1,949 nucleotides of DNA from Escherichia phage vB_EcoP-CC2, in sequence record OX638291.1; one strand, 5' to 3'. Positions within the stretch are counted from its first letter, which is position 1; every line of letters begins with the position of its first letter. Shown here piece after piece: positions 1 through 1,949 of this stretch. A program made the translations under genes and the position numbers. The notes beneath the pieces are model-generated. The model worked only from the letters and a program-made list of their open reading frames with translations, was not told where the DNA came from and searched no databases.

Positions 1-127
1 ATTGGATCGTCCTTAAACTAACACCGAAATAATCAGCTAAGAATTTTTGGTCACATACAACAGCCCCACACGATTTATCTATATTTTGAGCAAAAAAAGA
101 ATATAGCCTAAATGCTCTGGGAACCTT
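1..127. repeat. Terminal direct repeat, left copy (identical to 1823..1949); consistent with a circular molecule or tandem multimer of period 1,822 bp
   Basis: Base-by-base comparison: 1..127 and 1823..1949 are identical over all 127 bp and both run to the window edges. A minus-strand reading frame continues in phase across the implied junction. Confidence 0.95.
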
Positions 128-289
128 CTCAGATATAGAGTCCAACATATTCCAGCCCGCCTTAGTAACCTGCGACCAGTCAGGTGGATTCAACCGATCT
201 CGTTTTTGCTTAGCACTTTTGGATTGATCTTGTGCCTGATGATCTCGCCGTTTTTGCTGTTCGAAATCTTCAAATTGCTGTTCCAGCAT
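1..289 (-). CDS. N-terminal part of the same junction-spanning gene (window-start copy); likely start ATG at 287..289; 1..127 duplicates 1823..1949
   Basis: Minus-strand frame with codons 287..289 down to 2..4 is open and in phase with 1947..1949 across the 1,822-bp period. ATG at 287..289 is preceded on the minus strand by 'AGGTAAGGATGCAAGT' (AAGGA Shine-Dalgarno-like, about 7 nt spacing). Unique part 128..289 encodes MLEQQFEDFEQQKRRDHQAQDQSKSAKQKRDRLNPPDWSQVTKAGWNMLDSISE. Joined product is about 177 aa. An alternative start at ATG 146..148 would give about 131 aa. Confidence 0.5.
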   Translation of the reverse strand, partial: MLEQQFEDFEQQKRRDHQAQDQSKSAKQKRDRLNPPDWSQVTKAGWNMLDSISEKVPRAFRLYSFFAQNIDKSCGAVVCDQKFLADYFGVSLRTIQ

Positions 290-307
290 ACTTGCATCCT
301 TACCTGC

Positions 308-403
308 AACGTTGTTTCGTACCTTACGAAATTTATATCGTACATTACGAAACAACACACGCAAACATGTTTGCGTATACACATGCAAATAACGTTTCGT
401 ATG
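308..403 (-). promoter_or_regulatory. Putative promoter/operator (possibly iteron-type oriV) region upstream of the Rep-like gene
   Basis: Seen directly: two 13-bp palindromic sites 'tcgtaccttacga' (317..329) and 'tcgtacattacga' (338..350), each embedded in a 15-bp direct repeat (317..331 and 338..352, one mismatch) spaced 21 bp apart; perfect 14-bp palindrome 'gcaaacatgtttgc' (361..374); inverted repeat 311..321 with 346..356; 'aacgtttcgta' (391..401) echoing 308..321; 8/9 match to DnaA box TTATNCACA at 375..383 ('gtatacaca'). Minus strand has a 'TATAAAT' -10-like element (complement of about 332..338). No convincing -35 found. Confidence 0.45.
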
Positions 404-409
404 TTGGTG

Positions 410-510
410 TCATAATGCTTTGATTTTTAAGAGAATGTCGATTTTTGCTCTAAAGATCTATCAAAGCACTTTTTTGCTACACAAGATTTAATTAGTTCAT
501 CGAACATTTG
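410..510. other. AT-rich intergenic tract, possible DNA-unwinding element of a vegetative origin
   Basis: Visibly AT-rich non-coding stretch between the repeat/operator cluster and the GC-rich module; contains two of four copies of the octamer 'tttttgct' (443..450, 471..478; others at 203..210 and 251..258). Functional role is inference only. Confidence 0.3.
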
Positions 511-600
511 GGGTGTCGGGGCGAAGCCCTGACCCAGTCACGTAGCGATAGCGGAGTGTATACTGGCTTACTCTTCTGCAAGCCTCTTCAGCCGTGATTT
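511..600. other. ColE1/pMB1-type bom (oriT)-like region with a candidate nic motif
   Basis: 'gggtgtcggggcgaagccctgacccagtcacgtagcgatagcggagtgtatactggcttact' closely resembles, from memory, the pBR322/ColE1 bom segment '...gggtgtcggggcgcagccatgacccagtcacgtagcgatagcggagtgtatactggcttaact...'. By analogy the nick would fall in 'ctgg/ctta' (about 566/567). Not verified by alignment. Confidence 0.5.
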
Positions 601-705
601 TGCCCGATTTCGCGCTCTCCACGTTCAACAGCTCGATCATGTTTTTGCAGTCCGTTCACCGCTAAAACGCCCCGCATCAGTGCGTACGTGCTCAATGTGG
701 TTTCC

Positions 706-772
706 GGTTCTCTTCCGCTTCCTCGCCCACTCGCTCACTAACGTTCGGTCGCTGGGGCTGCGGCGAGCGGTG
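706..772. other. Segment resembling the ColE1 primosome assembly site (pas/ssi) downstream of the ColE1 origin
   Basis: 'tctcttccgcttcctcgcccactcgctcactaacgttcggtcgctggggctgcggcgagcgg' parallels the pBR322/pUC backbone motif 'ctcttccgcttcctcgctcactgactcgctgcgctcggtcgttcggctgcggcgagcgg' (recalled). Functional assignment as a pas site is from general knowledge of ColE1 and is uncertain here. Confidence 0.35.
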
Positions 773-833
773 CCACCTCTCGCATGTTATCGGTGATTCC
801 GCTGTTGTTCTTTCGGGGATGAGTCGCCAGATA

Positions 834-864
834 GCTCTTCAAACGCTCTCAGAAGCTCTCAGAC
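834..864. repeat. Three tandem imperfect copies of a 10-11 bp unit (gctcttcaaac / gctctcagaa / gctctcagac)
   Basis: Read directly from the sequence; unit length is near one helical turn. Function unknown. Confidence 0.4.
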
Positions 865-1075
865 GCACGAAACGGGTTTTAAATGCCCATCAGGGCATGG
901 AAGGCGCGAAAAACGCTTACAGAGGGTTTTAGGAGGTCAGGCGCGCCGATACCCCTAACCAGGGGATTTCAGGTCGCCAGGAACCGCGTCAGCCCCCTGC
1001 AAAGCCCATTTGCACGGAATAGGCAGCCATGCGGTTGGTAGGTGGTCGTAGACCGTCGATGTTACAGCGACGGGG

Positions 1076-1130
1076 GTCTGGGGTTCTCCCCAGACGGTTT
1101 CCGGTTGCGCTCAAGGCGCTGCCGGAACCG
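1076..1130. other. Two adjacent GC-rich stem-loops (possible ssDNA or RNA structural element)
   Basis: Perfect 8-bp stem 'gtctgggg' (1076..1083) / 'ccccagac' (1088..1095) with loop 'ttct'; then an imperfect extended hairpin with arms 'cggtttccgg' (1095..1104) / 'ccggaaccg' (1122..1130) and inner 'gcgc'/'gcgc' stem. No U-tract follows on either strand, so not a canonical intrinsic terminator. Confidence 0.35.
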
Positions 1131-1277
1131 TGGCGGCTCGGTCGTTCTGGAAAACGGGGAGCAAAAAGACGCAAGGGATTTTGAGGCGGCAAAAGAGCAA
1201 TGCAGGATAGACAATCAACTAGAAATTGCATGCAATGTTCTGTGGATTGTCCGCCTACCGCTGGCTCTGTATGGCCA

Positions 1278-1565
1278 TCACTTTTTTCGATATTTATCTA
1301 ACTCAATTACAGGTGCAGGAATTTTTTTCTTCACACTTTTTTTTGGTTTTTGTATTTTTTCATTGTTGCTAACGACAAACATAATTTTCTTTCCATCTTC
1401 ATTGACAATATCAACGGGATTAAACTCCTTATCTTCACAATTCATATATAGATTTATTCCCATTGCATATTCGATATGATATTCATCAATTAACGAATCT
1501 ATTGATCTACATATTTCTAATTTTAGTTCTTCTAATTTCCAACGTGATTCATATTTAACTCTCAT
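1278..1565 (-). CDS. Hypothetical small protein (95 aa), function unknown; immediately downstream of the Rep-like gene on the same strand
   Basis: ORF track 1278..1565 (-), ATG start, TGA stop. Only 12 nt (1566..1577) separate it from the upstream stop, suggesting co-transcription or translational coupling. Weak SD-like 'TAGGT' about 9 nt upstream. Mixed acidic N-terminal half and Lys-rich C-terminal tail (KIQKPKKSVKKK...KYRKK). AT-rich like the upstream gene. I do not recognise the sequence. Confidence 0.5.
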   Translation of the reverse strand: MRVKYESRWKLEELKLEICRSIDSLIDEYHIEYAMGINLYMNCEDKEFNPVDIVNEDGKKIMFVVSNNEKIQKPKKSVKKKIPAPVIELDKYRKK

Positions 1566-1577
1566 AGCGCATCATAC

Positions 1578-1949
1578 CTAGTCCAAGTCATGATTAGATG
1601 TCTTAAGCGAGCCTTCAAACTCTTCTCTCCTAGAGAGCATGAGCCGCAACTTGCGATCAATAACGCCATCTTTTTGAGTTAATGTTTTTGCGTTAAACGC
1701 TGCATATTTTTTAGATTTATTATATCCGCGCCATACCTGATACGGATCTAACGCATAAGCATAATAGATACCTACTGGTATTTTCACGATGGCACCAATA
1801 CTTTCTAAATCTCCAATCCAATATTGGATCGTCCTTAAACTAACACCGAAATAATCAGCTAAGAATTTTTGGTCACATACAACAGCCCCACACGATTTAT
1901 CTATATTTTGAGCAAAAAAAGAATATAGCCTAAATGCTCTGGGAACCTT
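1578..1949 (-). CDS. C-terminal part of a junction-spanning gene for a putative replication-initiator-like HTH protein; 5' end truncated by the window edge and continues in 128..289
   Basis: The listed ORF 1578..1787 begins at an internal GTG; the same frame stays open upstream to the window end (manual translation ...KVPRAFRLYSFFAQNIDKSCGAVVCDQKFLADYFGVSLRTIQYWIGDLESIGAI-VKIPVGIYY...HDLD, stop TAG at 1578..1580). The motif 'QKFLADYFGVSLRTIQYWIGDLESIGAI' has the pattern of a (winged) helix-turn-helix as found in small plasmid/phage Rep proteins. Family assignment is inference; no search was run. Confidence 0.6.
   Translation of the reverse strand, partial: KVPRAFRLYSFFAQNIDKSCGAVVCDQKFLADYFGVSLRTIQYWIGDLESIGAIVKIPVGIYYAYALDPYQVWRGYNKSKKYAAFNAKTLTQKDGVIDRKLRLMLSRREEFEGSLKTSNHDLD
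1823..1949. repeat. Terminal direct repeat, right copy (identical to 1..127)
   Basis: Same comparison as for the left copy; offset between copies is exactly 1,822 bp. Confidence 0.95.

What the first reader, a model, noticed from the sequence alone, without database searches (positions are those of the whole stretch)
511..1190. Mosaic architecture: compressed ColE1-backbone-like GC-rich module fused to an AT-rich Rep module
Besides bom, several segments echo pBR322/pUC backbone motifs in the same order (all recalled, unverified): a pas-like segment (706..772), 'aaccaggggatttcagg...ccaggaaccgcg...cagccccctg' (about 958..1000) versus the ColE1 ori-proximal 'aatcaggggataacgcagg...ccaggaaccgtaaaa...ccgcccccctgac', and 'gcaagggattttgagg' (1171..1186) versus 'gttaagggattttggtc'. 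The interval is far too short for a canonical RNA II/RNA I replicon, suggesting a degenerate or minimised ColE1-like backbone whose replication may now depend on the protein initiator. The sharp composition shift at about 510 and about 1200 fits modular recombination between replicons from different backgrounds.
Basis: partly seen in the sequence, partly recalled or inferred. Interest (0 to 1): 0.5.

Follow-up and report, generated by a model that had tools for sequence, protein, structure and literature searches.

The report
Mini-plasmid with borrowed transfer-and-priming cassette

Summary
The window is a circular 1822-bp plasmid of the Col(MG828)/pKL1-pKST21 family, with a 127-nt terminal overlap. 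Identical or 99% identical records are already in PLSDB.

**What holds up**
- The composition shift is real: GC is 0.57 in 510–1276 and 0.35 elsewhere (p = 2e-20).
- Two ColE1 similarities are real: bom (511–570, 59/60 identities) and the n'-pas/ssiA-like segment (672–784, E = 3e-12).

**What does not**
- The other two recalled "echoes" (958–1000 and 1171–1186) are chance-level matches.
- No RNA I, no RNA II-like promoter, and no ColE1 similarity exist beyond position 784.

**What the module is**
- Window 505–1265 is about 92% identical in mini-plasmids whose initiators are only 42% identical or not detectably related.
- It is collinear with origin-side non-coding DNA of IncX1, IncX4 and IncN-type plasmids.
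- It consists of conserved hairpin elements: the pas hairpin, favoured on the (−) strand; an almost invariant 48-nt block; a triple hairpin with z = −7, favoured on the (+) strand; and a boundary palindrome.

**Best reading:** a portable cis-acting cassette of a trans-mobilisable oriT plus single-strand initiation signals, serving a pKL1/RepL-type initiator.

**Verdict:** the mosaic architecture is correct and already known. The "degenerate ColE1 replicon" idea is not supported. Interest is modest.

The parts
1..289 (-). 5' part of the rep gene. The start codon is at 289 and the gene wraps around the circle.
   Evidence: Circular ORF reconstruction gives 177 aa from the ATG. Pfam RepL PF05732 scores 22.5 bits against a cutoff of 20.3. 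The protein is 42% identical (E = 4e-41) to a pKL1-type RepA. It is annotated RepL in identical PLSDB records.
1578..1822 (-). 3' part of the rep gene. Positions 1823-1949 repeat 1-127.
1278..1565 (-). orf95, a small ORF downstream of rep. It is swappable among relatives.
   Evidence: No family match. It is absent or replaced in L035 and L036, which carry the same rep.
290..505 (.). Putative Rep-specific origin and rep promoter region. It contains inverted 22-nt repeats at 311-332/335-356, four TTTCGTA/TACGAAA copies, an 18-bp perfect palindrome at 359-376, a promoter-like site at 441..412 on the (-) strand, and a stretch at 401-500 with GC 0.29.
   Evidence: The placement is analogous to the pKL1 oriV upstream of repA (PMC3832669). 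Function is inferred, not shown.
511..570 (+). ColE1-type bom/oriT core: an inverted repeat at 511-535 plus the nick region. The nick is predicted between 566 and 567, by analogy and from my own knowledge.
   Evidence: 59/60 identity to ColE1. This segment is shared with about 2300 mostly mobilizable plasmids.
672..784 (-). n'-pas/ssiA-like element, with the hairpin core at 712-772.
   Evidence: 81/114 identities to the ColE1 pas, E = 3e-12. The outer stem CCGCT/AGCGG is conserved and the inner stems are lineage-specific. The (-) strand fold is the more stable one in 7 of 9 lineages.
841..872 (.). Tandem 10-nt repeats (GCTCTCAGAA / GCTCTCAGAC) of unknown role.
   Evidence: Conserved in relatives.
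878..925 (+). Nearly invariant 48-nt block: hairpin ATGCCC-ATCA-GGGCAT followed by GGAAGGCGCGAAAAACGCTTACAGAGG.
   Evidence: Covariance model hits of 60-81 bits in all mini-plasmids and in IncX4, IncX1, mini-IncX, Arsenophonus and Sodalis. A variant copy has two compensatory pair flips.
926..1047 (.).
   Evidence: Conserved in the family, and found in the IncN-type plasmid (682-1070, 68%) and in IncX1 (969-999, 84%). Not ColE1-related.
1048..1133 (+). Cluster of three adjacent hairpins.
   Evidence: The ssDNA fold is -30.1 kcal/mol against -14.3 +/- 2.3 in shuffles (z = -7.0). The (-) strand gives z = -6.3. The (+) strand is more stable in all 9 family variants.
1165..1202 (.).
   Evidence: 92% identical to IncX1 origin-side DNA and conserved in the family.
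1204..1255 (.). Boundary palindrome: conserved base GACAATC/GATTGTC with an allelic palindromic interior. It is probably a terminator- or insulator-like hairpin at the 3' end of the rep-orf95 operon.
   Evidence: Four alleles all fold as long hairpins, z = -2.9 to -4.4. The same element lies just 3' of the pir operon in IncX4.
1262..1287 (+). Small hairpin followed by a T-run (terminator-like).

Best explanation
The window is a two-module mini-plasmid.

Module 1 (about 1266..1822 plus 1..505, AT-rich) is the replicon proper. It holds a small winged-helix initiator of the pKL1-RepA/RepL kind, its own repeat-bearing origin and promoter just upstream (290-505), and a dispensable small ORF.

Module 2 (about 505..1265, GC-rich, non-coding) is a portable cis-acting cassette that handles single-stranded DNA.
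- It starts with a ColE1-type bom/oriT. No relaxase is encoded, so a co-resident ColE1-family Mob system would have to nick it in trans and a conjugative plasmid would have to transfer it.
- On the strand predicted to be transferred, and leading into the recipient, a row of conserved hairpin elements follows: the ColE1 ssiA-like PriA-type primosome assembly site (active on the (-) strand, which is the rep-sense strand), a nearly invariant hairpin-GGAAGG block, and a triple hairpin favoured on the (+) strand.
- I infer that these are single-strand initiation signals on both strands. They would prime complementary-strand synthesis on the strand displaced by Rep-driven replication, and on the strand that enters a recipient. 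For the first role the cassette lies immediately 'upstream' of the origin, where rolling-circle plasmids keep their single-strand origin and where pHW126-type plasmids keep their ssi.
- A boundary palindrome insulates the cassette from the rep operon.

The cassette is not a ColE1 replicon remnant.

Shown here: homology, distribution, modular exchange, hairpin conservation, and the absence of RNA I/RNA II features. Inferred: priming function, strand assignments, the nick position, and mobilisation in trans.
For: - Circular 1822-bp plasmid identical to catalogued records.
- Rep matches RepL/pKL1 RepA.
- bom is 59/60 identical to ColE1 and pas gives E = 3e-12.
- No RNA I in the window, with a positive control in ColE1. 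No promoters in the module.
- The module is shared at 91-95% identity with plasmids carrying at least four different rep genes. The rep module occurs in only 40 records, and every relative examined carries the cassette.
- Pieces of the module lie in non-coding DNA beside rep genes of IncX4, IncX1, mini-IncX, IncN-type and Arsenophonus plasmids. IncX1 is collinear over 634-1202.
- The pas hairpin architecture is preserved with different inner stems and is favoured on the (-) strand. The block hairpin shows compensatory flips. The triple hairpin has z = -7 and is favoured on the (+) strand in 9 of 9 variants.
- Frameshifting indels argue against coding.
- In 10 of 10 mini-plasmid architectures the cassette lies upstream of rep with rep on the opposite strand.
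- Literature: ColE1 ssiA recruits PriA (PMC3167613). pHW126, pIGRK and pIGMS31 have RepL-related Reps, and an ssi lies upstream of the origin. That ssi is dispensable, but its loss causes multimers and instability. oriT-only plasmids with ColE1-like oriTs are common hitchers (PMC10123127). The family is described as mosaic (PMC8148099; reference titles).
Against: - No experiment bears on this plasmid's cassette.
- No significant similarity was found to phage G4 oric, to the five reference Frpo/ssi sequences, or to F ssiE by profile or covariance model.
- The strand preference of the hairpins tracks local G/T richness, so it may be compositional.
- Weak copies of the block in IncX4 lie upstream of genes and in the other orientation. 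The block may therefore be a different kind of element, for example regulatory.
- PLSDB/MOB-suite types the 1822-bp plasmids 'non-mobilizable'.
- This plasmid lacks an 88-nt piece present in relatives.
Confidence: 0.55

Rival explanations
1. One reading: the module is a degenerate or minimised ColE1 replicon, with remnants of ori and RNA II/RNA I whose function has been taken over by the protein initiator.
For: bom and pas are ColE1-like and lie in the ColE1 order and orientation. Shared 7-mers with the ColE1 ori region are somewhat enriched: 45 against 22.7 +/- 6.3 in shuffles.
Against: No alignment with E < 1 beyond position 784. The 8-mer chain is not significant. RNA I is absent although it is detectable in ColE1. 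No promoters in the module. The same DNA (about 680-1200) occurs collinearly in IncX1, IncX-like and IncN-type plasmids, which are not ColE1 replicons. The third motif compares to vector DNA that is absent from ColE1.
Confidence: 0.04
2. The cassette, or its 840-1140 core, is an essential host-factor part of the vegetative origin. It would be the place where helicase is loaded or the leading strand is primed for any of these small winged-helix initiators, rather than an accessory element.
For: It is always a few hundred nt upstream of rep, in a fixed orientation, in all mini-plasmids examined. It was never seen missing from this rep module. It is origin-side in IncX and IncN plasmids. Replicon typing (Col(MG828)) evidently keys on it.
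Against: Rep-specific sites cannot lie in DNA that is 92% identical between plasmids with unrelated Reps. The pKL1 oriV and Rep-binding sites are reported directly upstream of repA. In the related pHW126, pIGRK and pIGMS31 plasmids the ssi is dispensable for replication. Different relatives keep different subsets of the cassette.
Confidence: 0.2
3. The cassette serves horizontal transfer only. It would be an oriT plus the 'leading region' of a hitchhiking plasmid, with signals used on the transferred strand in the recipient and no role in vegetative replication.
For: bom is at the cassette's 5' end, and the rest lies on the side predicted to enter first. Two bom alleles occur in the family, each identical to the bom of a different ColE1-like Mob plasmid. 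The triple hairpin favours the predicted T strand. Block variants are repeated upstream of genes in IncX4, much as leading-region elements are (PMC11541004). F ssiE is oriT-proximal and shares a hairpin-GGAAGG motif.
Against: Relatives that lost bom and carry their own MobA keep 682-1142. The pas homolog is on the non-transferred strand, as in ColE1, where it serves lagging-strand synthesis. The F ssiE similarity is not significant.
Confidence: 0.15
4. The cassette is a multimer-resolution or stability site, either cer-like (Xer-dependent) or of another recombination type.
For: In pHW126-type plasmids, loss of the accessory ssi region leads to multimers. Small high-copy plasmids need such functions.
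Against: No XerC/XerD core with up to 7 mismatches, and no XerD arm with up to 2 mismatches, anywhere in the plasmid.
Confidence: 0.05

Closest known systems
pKL1 / pKST21 / Col(MG828) mini-plasmids of E. coli (1.5-2.3 kb)
   Same: Identical and 99% identical 1822-bp records exist. The GC cassette is the same, at about 92% nt identity. Rep is 42% identical to a pKL1-type RepA. The family has been described as mosaic.
   Different: This member has a diverged rep module plus orf95. It lacks an 88-nt piece of the cassette that relatives have, which includes an inverted copy of the bom inverted repeat.
ColE1 / pMB1 basic replicon with bom
   Same: The bom nick region and inverted repeat match at 59/60. 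The ssiA/n'-pas homolog has the same order and orientation.
   Different: No RNA I, no RNA II promoter or preprimer, no ori similarity, and no rop or mob genes. Replication is initiated by an encoded protein.
pHW126 / pIGRK / pIGMS31 family (RepL-related Rep; rolling-circle, or mixed rolling-circle and theta replication)
   Same: A small AT-rich replicon with a RepL-like winged-helix Rep. The origin with repeats lies upstream of rep, and an accessory hairpin ssi lies just beyond the origin.
   Different: Sequence relatedness of the ssi elements could not be tested because those records are not in the collections. Here the accessory region is about 750 nt, GC-rich and composite, and it includes a ColE1 bom.
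Origin-side non-coding DNA of IncX1/IncX4 (R6K-type) and IncN-type plasmids
   Same: IncX1 is collinear with window 634-1202, IncN-type with 682-1070, and mini-IncX with 681-1021. This DNA is adjacent to pir-type or RepA genes.
   Different: Identity is 68-82%, with deletions. There is no ColE1 bom (only an inverted copy of its inverted repeat in IncX1). The function of this DNA in those plasmids is unannotated.
Single-strand origins (sso) of rolling-circle plasmids, and ssi signals of F, R6K, R100 and ColE2 (Nomura et al. 1991)
   Same: Strand-specific, hairpin-rich, non-coding, and placed next to the origin or oriT. They can be exchanged between replicons.
   Different: No demonstrable sequence homology to phage G4 oric, to ColIb-P9 Frpo1-3, or to F ssiD/ssiE. 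Activity is untested.

Membership tests
ColE1-type (RNA II/RNA I) replicon | Antisense RNA I | tested here: not met
   No RF00106 hit at E <= 10 in the window. The same scan finds RNA I in ColE1 at 73.8 bits, E = 3e-13.
ColE1-type (RNA II/RNA I) replicon | RNA II promoter and a preprimer of about 550 nt ending at an ori with sequence similarity to ColE1/pMB1 | tested here: not met
   No sigma-70-like site in 511-1265. No ColE1 alignment with E < 1 beyond position 784. The motif chain is not significant.
ColE1-type (RNA II/RNA I) replicon | Dependence on DNA polymerase I and RNase H | not testable with these tools
   Needs replication tests in polA and rnhA hosts.
ColE1-type bom / oriT | Inverted repeat plus nick-region sequence | tested here: met
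   59/60 identity to ColE1 over 511-570.
ColE1-type bom / oriT | Nicking by an MbeA-type relaxase and mobilisation | not testable with these tools
   No relaxase is encoded, so it would have to act in trans. PLSDB/MOB-suite labels this plasmid non-mobilizable.
PriA-dependent primosome assembly site (n'-pas / ssiA) | Homology to an experimentally defined pas | tested here: met
   81/114 identities to the ColE1 pas region, E = 3e-12. The function of ColE1 ssiA is described in PMC3167613.
PriA-dependent primosome assembly site (n'-pas / ssiA) | Conserved single-strand hairpin architecture | tested here: met
   The outer stem is conserved and at least four different inner stems occur across lineages. 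The (-) strand is more stable in 7 of 9.
PriA-dependent primosome assembly site (n'-pas / ssiA) | PriA binding, ATPase stimulation and primosome assembly | not testable with these tools
   Biochemical assay needed.
pKL1-RepA / RepL-type initiator replicon | Rep homologous to the family | tested here: met
   PF05732 scores 22.5 bits against a cutoff of 20.3. 42% identity, E = 4e-41, to a pKL1-type RepA.
pKL1-RepA / RepL-type initiator replicon | Origin with repeats and an inverted repeat directly upstream of rep | tested here: inconclusive
   Inverted 22-nt repeats, an 18-bp palindrome and an AT-rich stretch lie at 290-505. Rep binding is untested.
Frpo-type single-stranded DNA promoter | -35/-10 hexamers within a long hairpin; similarity to known Frpo | tested here: not met
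   No promoter-like hexamers in the module. No significant match to ColIb-P9 Frpo1-3 or F ssiD.
G4-type primase-dependent priming site | Similarity to phage G4 oric or plasmid G sites; three hairpins | tested here: inconclusive
   A three-hairpin cluster is present, z = -7. No sequence similarity to any phage record at E <= 1.
cer/dif-type Xer site | XerC arm, 6-8 nt spacer, XerD arm | tested here: not met
   No match.

The most novel reading that the evidence does not exclude
The roughly 600-nt unit (pas hairpin, 48-nt hairpin-GGAAGG block, triple hairpin) is a widespread element that has not been described as a unit. It would be orientation-sensitive and carry priming signals on both strands. 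It travels between at least five unrelated initiator families: pKL1/RepL types, IncX pi, IncN-type RepA and Arsenophonus RepA. Under this reading the 'Col(MG828) replicon type' types this cassette, not a replicon. The 48-nt block, which is repeated upstream of genes in IncX4 and resembles the core of F ssiE, would be a new class of ssDNA-active signal.
Probability: 0.3. Interest if true: 0.5.

Novelty: already known. Interest (0 to 1): 0.27.

Why it matters
**Typing.** Plasmids with unrelated rep genes all receive the replicon type Col(MG828), apparently because the marker lies in this shared accessory cassette. Epidemiological replicon calls for these mini-plasmids therefore do not report the replicon.

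**Plasmid biology.** The cassette shows how the smallest plasmids outsource both transfer and priming to cis-acting signals that they swap with ColE1-like and IncX/IncN plasmids in the same hosts.

**Possible experiments.** If the hairpin elements are confirmed as priming signals on both strands, they would give a compact, testable model for how ssDNA intermediates are converted to duplex DNA after rolling-circle or strand-displacement replication and after conjugative entry.

Tried and rejected
1. **ColE1 ori homology beyond pas.** Sensitive blastn and k-mer chain tests were negative.
2. **RNA families.** Nothing was found in the window; RNA I was recovered only in the ColE1 control.
3. **Phage G4-type origin.** There were no phage hits other than stray copies of the mini-plasmid and vector fragments.
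4. **Homology of the 48-nt block to F ssiE.** The two share a hairpin followed by GGCATGGAAGGC, a 12-mer identity. It is not significant: blastn E = 2.9, nhmmer E = 0.14 in 7.7 kb, and no covariance-model hit at E <= 10. I keep it only as a lead.
5. **Frpo-type promoter.** No hexamers, and no similarity to the reference Frpo sequences.
6. **Xer site.** None.
7. **Protein coding in the module.** Relatives carry 1-nt indels inside the longest ORF.
8. **A universal rule that rep lies on the strand opposite the cassette.** It holds for 10 of 10 mini-plasmids, but a variant copy in IncX4 breaks it.
9. **Genome-wide scan for the block.** It mostly returned short contigs in implausible taxa, that is, contamination, so it added no diversity.
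10. **Primary papers.** The pKL1, pKST21 and pKST23 papers, the Nomura 1991 and Tanaka 1994 ssi papers, and the R6K, pIGRK and pBR322 records are not held.
Full report
**What the window is.** The first 127 bases recur at the end, so the window is a circular molecule of 1822 bp. Megablast against PLSDB finds 1822-bp plasmids that are 99-100% identical in E. coli and Shigella. They are typed Col(MG828) and annotated with a 'RepL' replication protein and a hypothetical protein. On the circle, the (-) strand carries a 177-aa rep gene (start at 289, wrapping to 1578), followed by a 95-aa ORF at 1565-1278. Rep passes the Pfam RepL threshold at 22.5 bits against 20.3. It is 42% identical (E = 4e-41) to the RepA of a 1553-bp pKL1-type plasmid. 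Its close relatives are few: 15 clusters among 5.8 billion proteins.

**Checking the observation.** The composition shift is real. The maximum-likelihood two-breakpoint segmentation gives 510..1276, with 510..1190 equally good. GC is 0.57 inside and 0.35 outside (Fisher p = 2e-20).

Against ColE1 (NC_001371), a sensitive blastn finds exactly two significant segments in the same order and orientation. One is bom, 511-570, at 59/60 identities. The other is the pas region, 672-784, at 81/114 identities and E = 3e-12. Nothing else reaches E < 1.

A collinear chain of shared 8-mers between 785-1200 and the ColE1 ori region is 4, against 2.35 +/- 0.9 in dinucleotide shuffles, and 8% of shuffles do as well.

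The third 'echo' (1171-1186) shares an 11-mer with a pBR322 string. About 1.4 such 11-mers are expected by chance. The string does not occur in ColE1 500-1900. From my own knowledge it straddles the Tn3 inverted repeat in pBR322, so it is not ColE1 backbone.

So bom, pas and the GC shift are confirmed, and the other two resemblances are not.

**Is it a ColE1 replicon remnant?** No. Rfam finds no RNA I at E <= 10 in the window, while the same scan recovers RNA I in ColE1 at 73.8 bits. No sigma-70-like promoter lies between 511 and 1265 on either strand. The longest ORF in the module is interrupted by 1-nt indels in close relatives, so the module is non-coding.

**What the module is: comparative evidence.**
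- Distribution among mini-plasmids. The block about 505-1265 is shared at 91-95% identity with 1.46-1.6-kb plasmids that carry other rep genes. These are a pKL1-type RepA, a 146-aa winged-helix protein, and other 'RepL' proteins whose similarity to the window's Rep is not significant. The window's own rep module occurs in only 40 PLSDB records. A relative that has swapped out orf95 still has the whole cassette. High DNA identity of the cassette (92.5% over 603 nt) next to 42% protein identity of the initiators demonstrates modular exchange.
- Distribution in large plasmids. Outside the mini-plasmids, pieces of 634-1265 occur as unannotated DNA beside replication genes:
  - about 0.7 kb upstream of the pir-type gene in IncX4;
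  - in IncX1;
  - 0.4 kb from an IncN-type RepA;
  - between rep and ddp1 in a 5.2-kb mini-IncX plasmid;
  - 0.7 kb upstream of a 'replication initiator protein A' gene in Arsenophonus, and also in Sodalis pSG1.
- Collinearity. IncX1 is collinear with window 634-1202 in five ordered segments, plus an inverted copy of the bom inverted repeat. The IncN-type plasmid aligns over 682-1070, and the mini-IncX plasmid over 681-1021.
- Conclusion. The nearest relatives of most of the cassette are IncX/IncN origin-side sequences. ColE1 contributes only bom and shares pas.

**Anatomy of the cassette.**
1. bom: an inverted repeat at 511-535 plus the nick region.
2. The pas hairpin (core 712-772). The outer stem CCGCT/AGCGG is invariant. 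The inner stem differs by lineage: GCCC/GGGC here, GTCGAT/ATCGAC in pMG828-1, CGAGCC/GGCTCG in L005, and CTTTGGCTG/CAGCCAAAG in Arsenophonus and Sodalis. The fold is more stable on the (-) strand in 7 of 9 lineages. From my memory of the ColE1 literature, that is the strand carrying the AAGCGG motif of ColE1's n' site.
3. A 48-nt block at 878-925: hairpin ATGCCC/GGGCAT followed by GGAAGGCGCGAAAAACGCTTACAGAGG. It is nearly invariant from the mini-plasmids to Arsenophonus. A covariance model recovers it at 60-81 bits in all of them. It also finds weak variants (22-29 bits) in IncX4 and IncN-type plasmids. One variant (ATCCGC/GCGGAT) carries two compensatory pair flips.
4. Three adjacent hairpins at 1048-1133. 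The ssDNA energy is -30.1 kcal/mol against -14.3 +/- 2.3 for shuffles (z = -7.0). The (+) strand is the more stable one in all nine family variants.
5. A boundary palindrome at about 1204-1255. Its base is conserved and its interior exists in at least three unrelated but internally palindromic alleles, all of which fold well. It sits at the 3' end of the rep-orf95 operon here, and just 3' of the pir operon in an IncX4 plasmid.

**Mechanism proposed (inference).** The replicon proper is Rep plus the repeat-bearing, AT-rich region at 290-505. That region holds inverted 22-nt repeats, an 18-bp palindrome and a promoter-like site. This matches the pKL1 oriV, which is reported directly upstream of repA (PMC3832669).

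The cassette lies immediately beyond that origin, with rep on the opposite strand, in all ten mini-plasmid architectures examined. This is the position of the accessory ssi in the RepL-related pHW126, pIGRK and pIGMS31 plasmids. There the ssi is dispensable for replication, but its loss raises copy number and causes multimers and instability. From my own knowledge it is also the position of single-strand origins in rolling-circle plasmids.

If replication proceeds in the direction of rep transcription, the displaced or lagging-template strand is the (-) strand, which carries the pas homolog. In ColE1 that element recruits PriA to assemble the primosome (PMC3167613).

bom has its inverted repeat 5' of the nick region on the (+) strand. 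The (+) strand is therefore predicted to be transferred with 567 onward entering first, and the (+)-favoured triple hairpin would be placed to prime complementary-strand synthesis in a recipient.

No relaxase is encoded, so transfer would depend on co-resident ColE1-type Mob plasmids. About 1900 mobilizable plasmids share this bom. oriT-only 'hitcher' plasmids with ColE1-like oriTs are well documented (PMC10123127).

**Caveats.**
- Nothing here is experimental for this plasmid.
- The strand preferences coincide with local G/T richness.
- The weak block copies in IncX4 lie about 140-190 nt upstream of genes and on the other strand, so the block may have a different role there, such as a leading-region or regulatory one.
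- A tempting resemblance of the block to F plasmid ssiE is not statistically supported. ssiE is an experimentally isolated ssi that lies next to oriT.
- There is no similarity to phage G4 oric or to Frpo elements.
- There is no Xer site.

**Comparison with what is known, and novelty.** The plasmid is already catalogued. Its family (pKL1, pKST21/pKST23, Col(MG828)) is already described as mosaic mini-plasmids (PMC8148099; reference titles in PMC10433428).

Three points may be less appreciated. The 'ColE1-like' part is confined to bom and pas. The rest of the cassette is collinear with IncX/IncN origin-side DNA. The Col(MG828) type apparently tracks this cassette across unrelated rep genes.

**Scores.** Interest is 0.27. 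Novelty is 'already known'. The most novel reading that remains open is a portable priming cassette with signals on both strands that contains a new ssDNA signal. I give it probability 0.3, and interest 0.5 if true.

Noticed in passing
window 1-127 and 1823-1949: The two ends are identical over 127 nt. The window is a circular 1822-bp contig with assembly overlap, and the rep gene runs across the junction.
   Followed up: yes
PLSDB NZ_CP090002.1; loci L021-L034: The only 100% identical record is labelled Staphylococcus aureus. Contigs of 1.3-1.7 kb carrying the same cassette sit in assemblies of Streptomyces, Rhizobium, Clostridium, Micromonospora, Flagellimonas and others. These look like contamination by E. 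coli mini-plasmids rather than true hosts.
   Followed up: partly
window about 794-1138 (inferred): Plasmids with at least four different rep genes are all typed 'Col(MG828)', while relatives with a more diverged or truncated core are not typed. The replicon-typing marker therefore apparently lies in the shared non-coding cassette, not in a rep gene or a Rep-specific origin.
   Followed up: partly
window about 675/676: Relatives (pKL1-type, pMG828-1, the 1506-bp and 1843-bp plasmids, and IncX1) carry about 88 extra nt here, including an inverted copy of the first 25 nt of bom (GGTCAGGGCTTCACCCCGACACCCC). This plasmid has lost that piece.
   Followed up: partly
window 536-570 compared with L003, L006: Two bom alleles exist in the mini-plasmid family. 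The ColE1 allele (..CAGTCACGTAGCGATAGCGGAGTG..) is found here, in pMG828-1, and with one substitution in the 1506-bp plasmid L007. A second allele (..CAGTTCACAGAGCGATAGCGATGTG..) is identical to that of a 3.4-kb ColE1-like Mob plasmid. MOB-suite calls mostly the second kind 'mobilizable'. This suggests bom is swapped to match co-resident helper plasmids.
   Followed up: no
window 1278-1565 (-): orf95 has no family match and a lysine-rich C-terminus. It is replaced by unrelated DNA or by a different small ORF in plasmids with 91-92% identical rep genes.
   Followed up: partly
window 1204-1255; L003, L012, L020: The boundary hairpin keeps its base (GACAATC/GATTGTC), but its interior occurs as three unrelated alleles, each itself palindromic. 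This is replacement of sequence with preservation of hairpin shape.
   Followed up: partly
L008 7193-7240(-) and 9435-9482(-); L020 418-465(+); L019 5529-5576(+): Extra, diverged copies of the 48-nt hairpin-GGAAGG block lie about 140-190 nt upstream of a J-domain protein gene and a hypothetical gene in IncX4 plasmids, antisense to them. Sodalis pSG1 also has a second copy. Their function is unknown. F ssiE has a similar hairpin-GGAAGG core, but homology was not demonstrable.
   Followed up: partly
window 443-462 compared with L003: The otherwise dissimilar origin regions of this plasmid and the pKL1-type plasmid both contain AAAGATCTAT, which includes a GATC Dam site. It lies about 50-60 nt before bom in this plasmid and about 35 nt before it in the pKL1-type plasmid.
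   Followed up: no
PLSDB NC_024968.1 (8531 bp), NZ_CP019270.1 (7475 bp), NZ_CP146569.1 (3631 bp): The whole 1822-bp or 1902-bp plasmid also occurs inside larger small plasmids, and as an apparent dimer record. These are either cointegrates and multimers or assembly artefacts.
   Followed up: no
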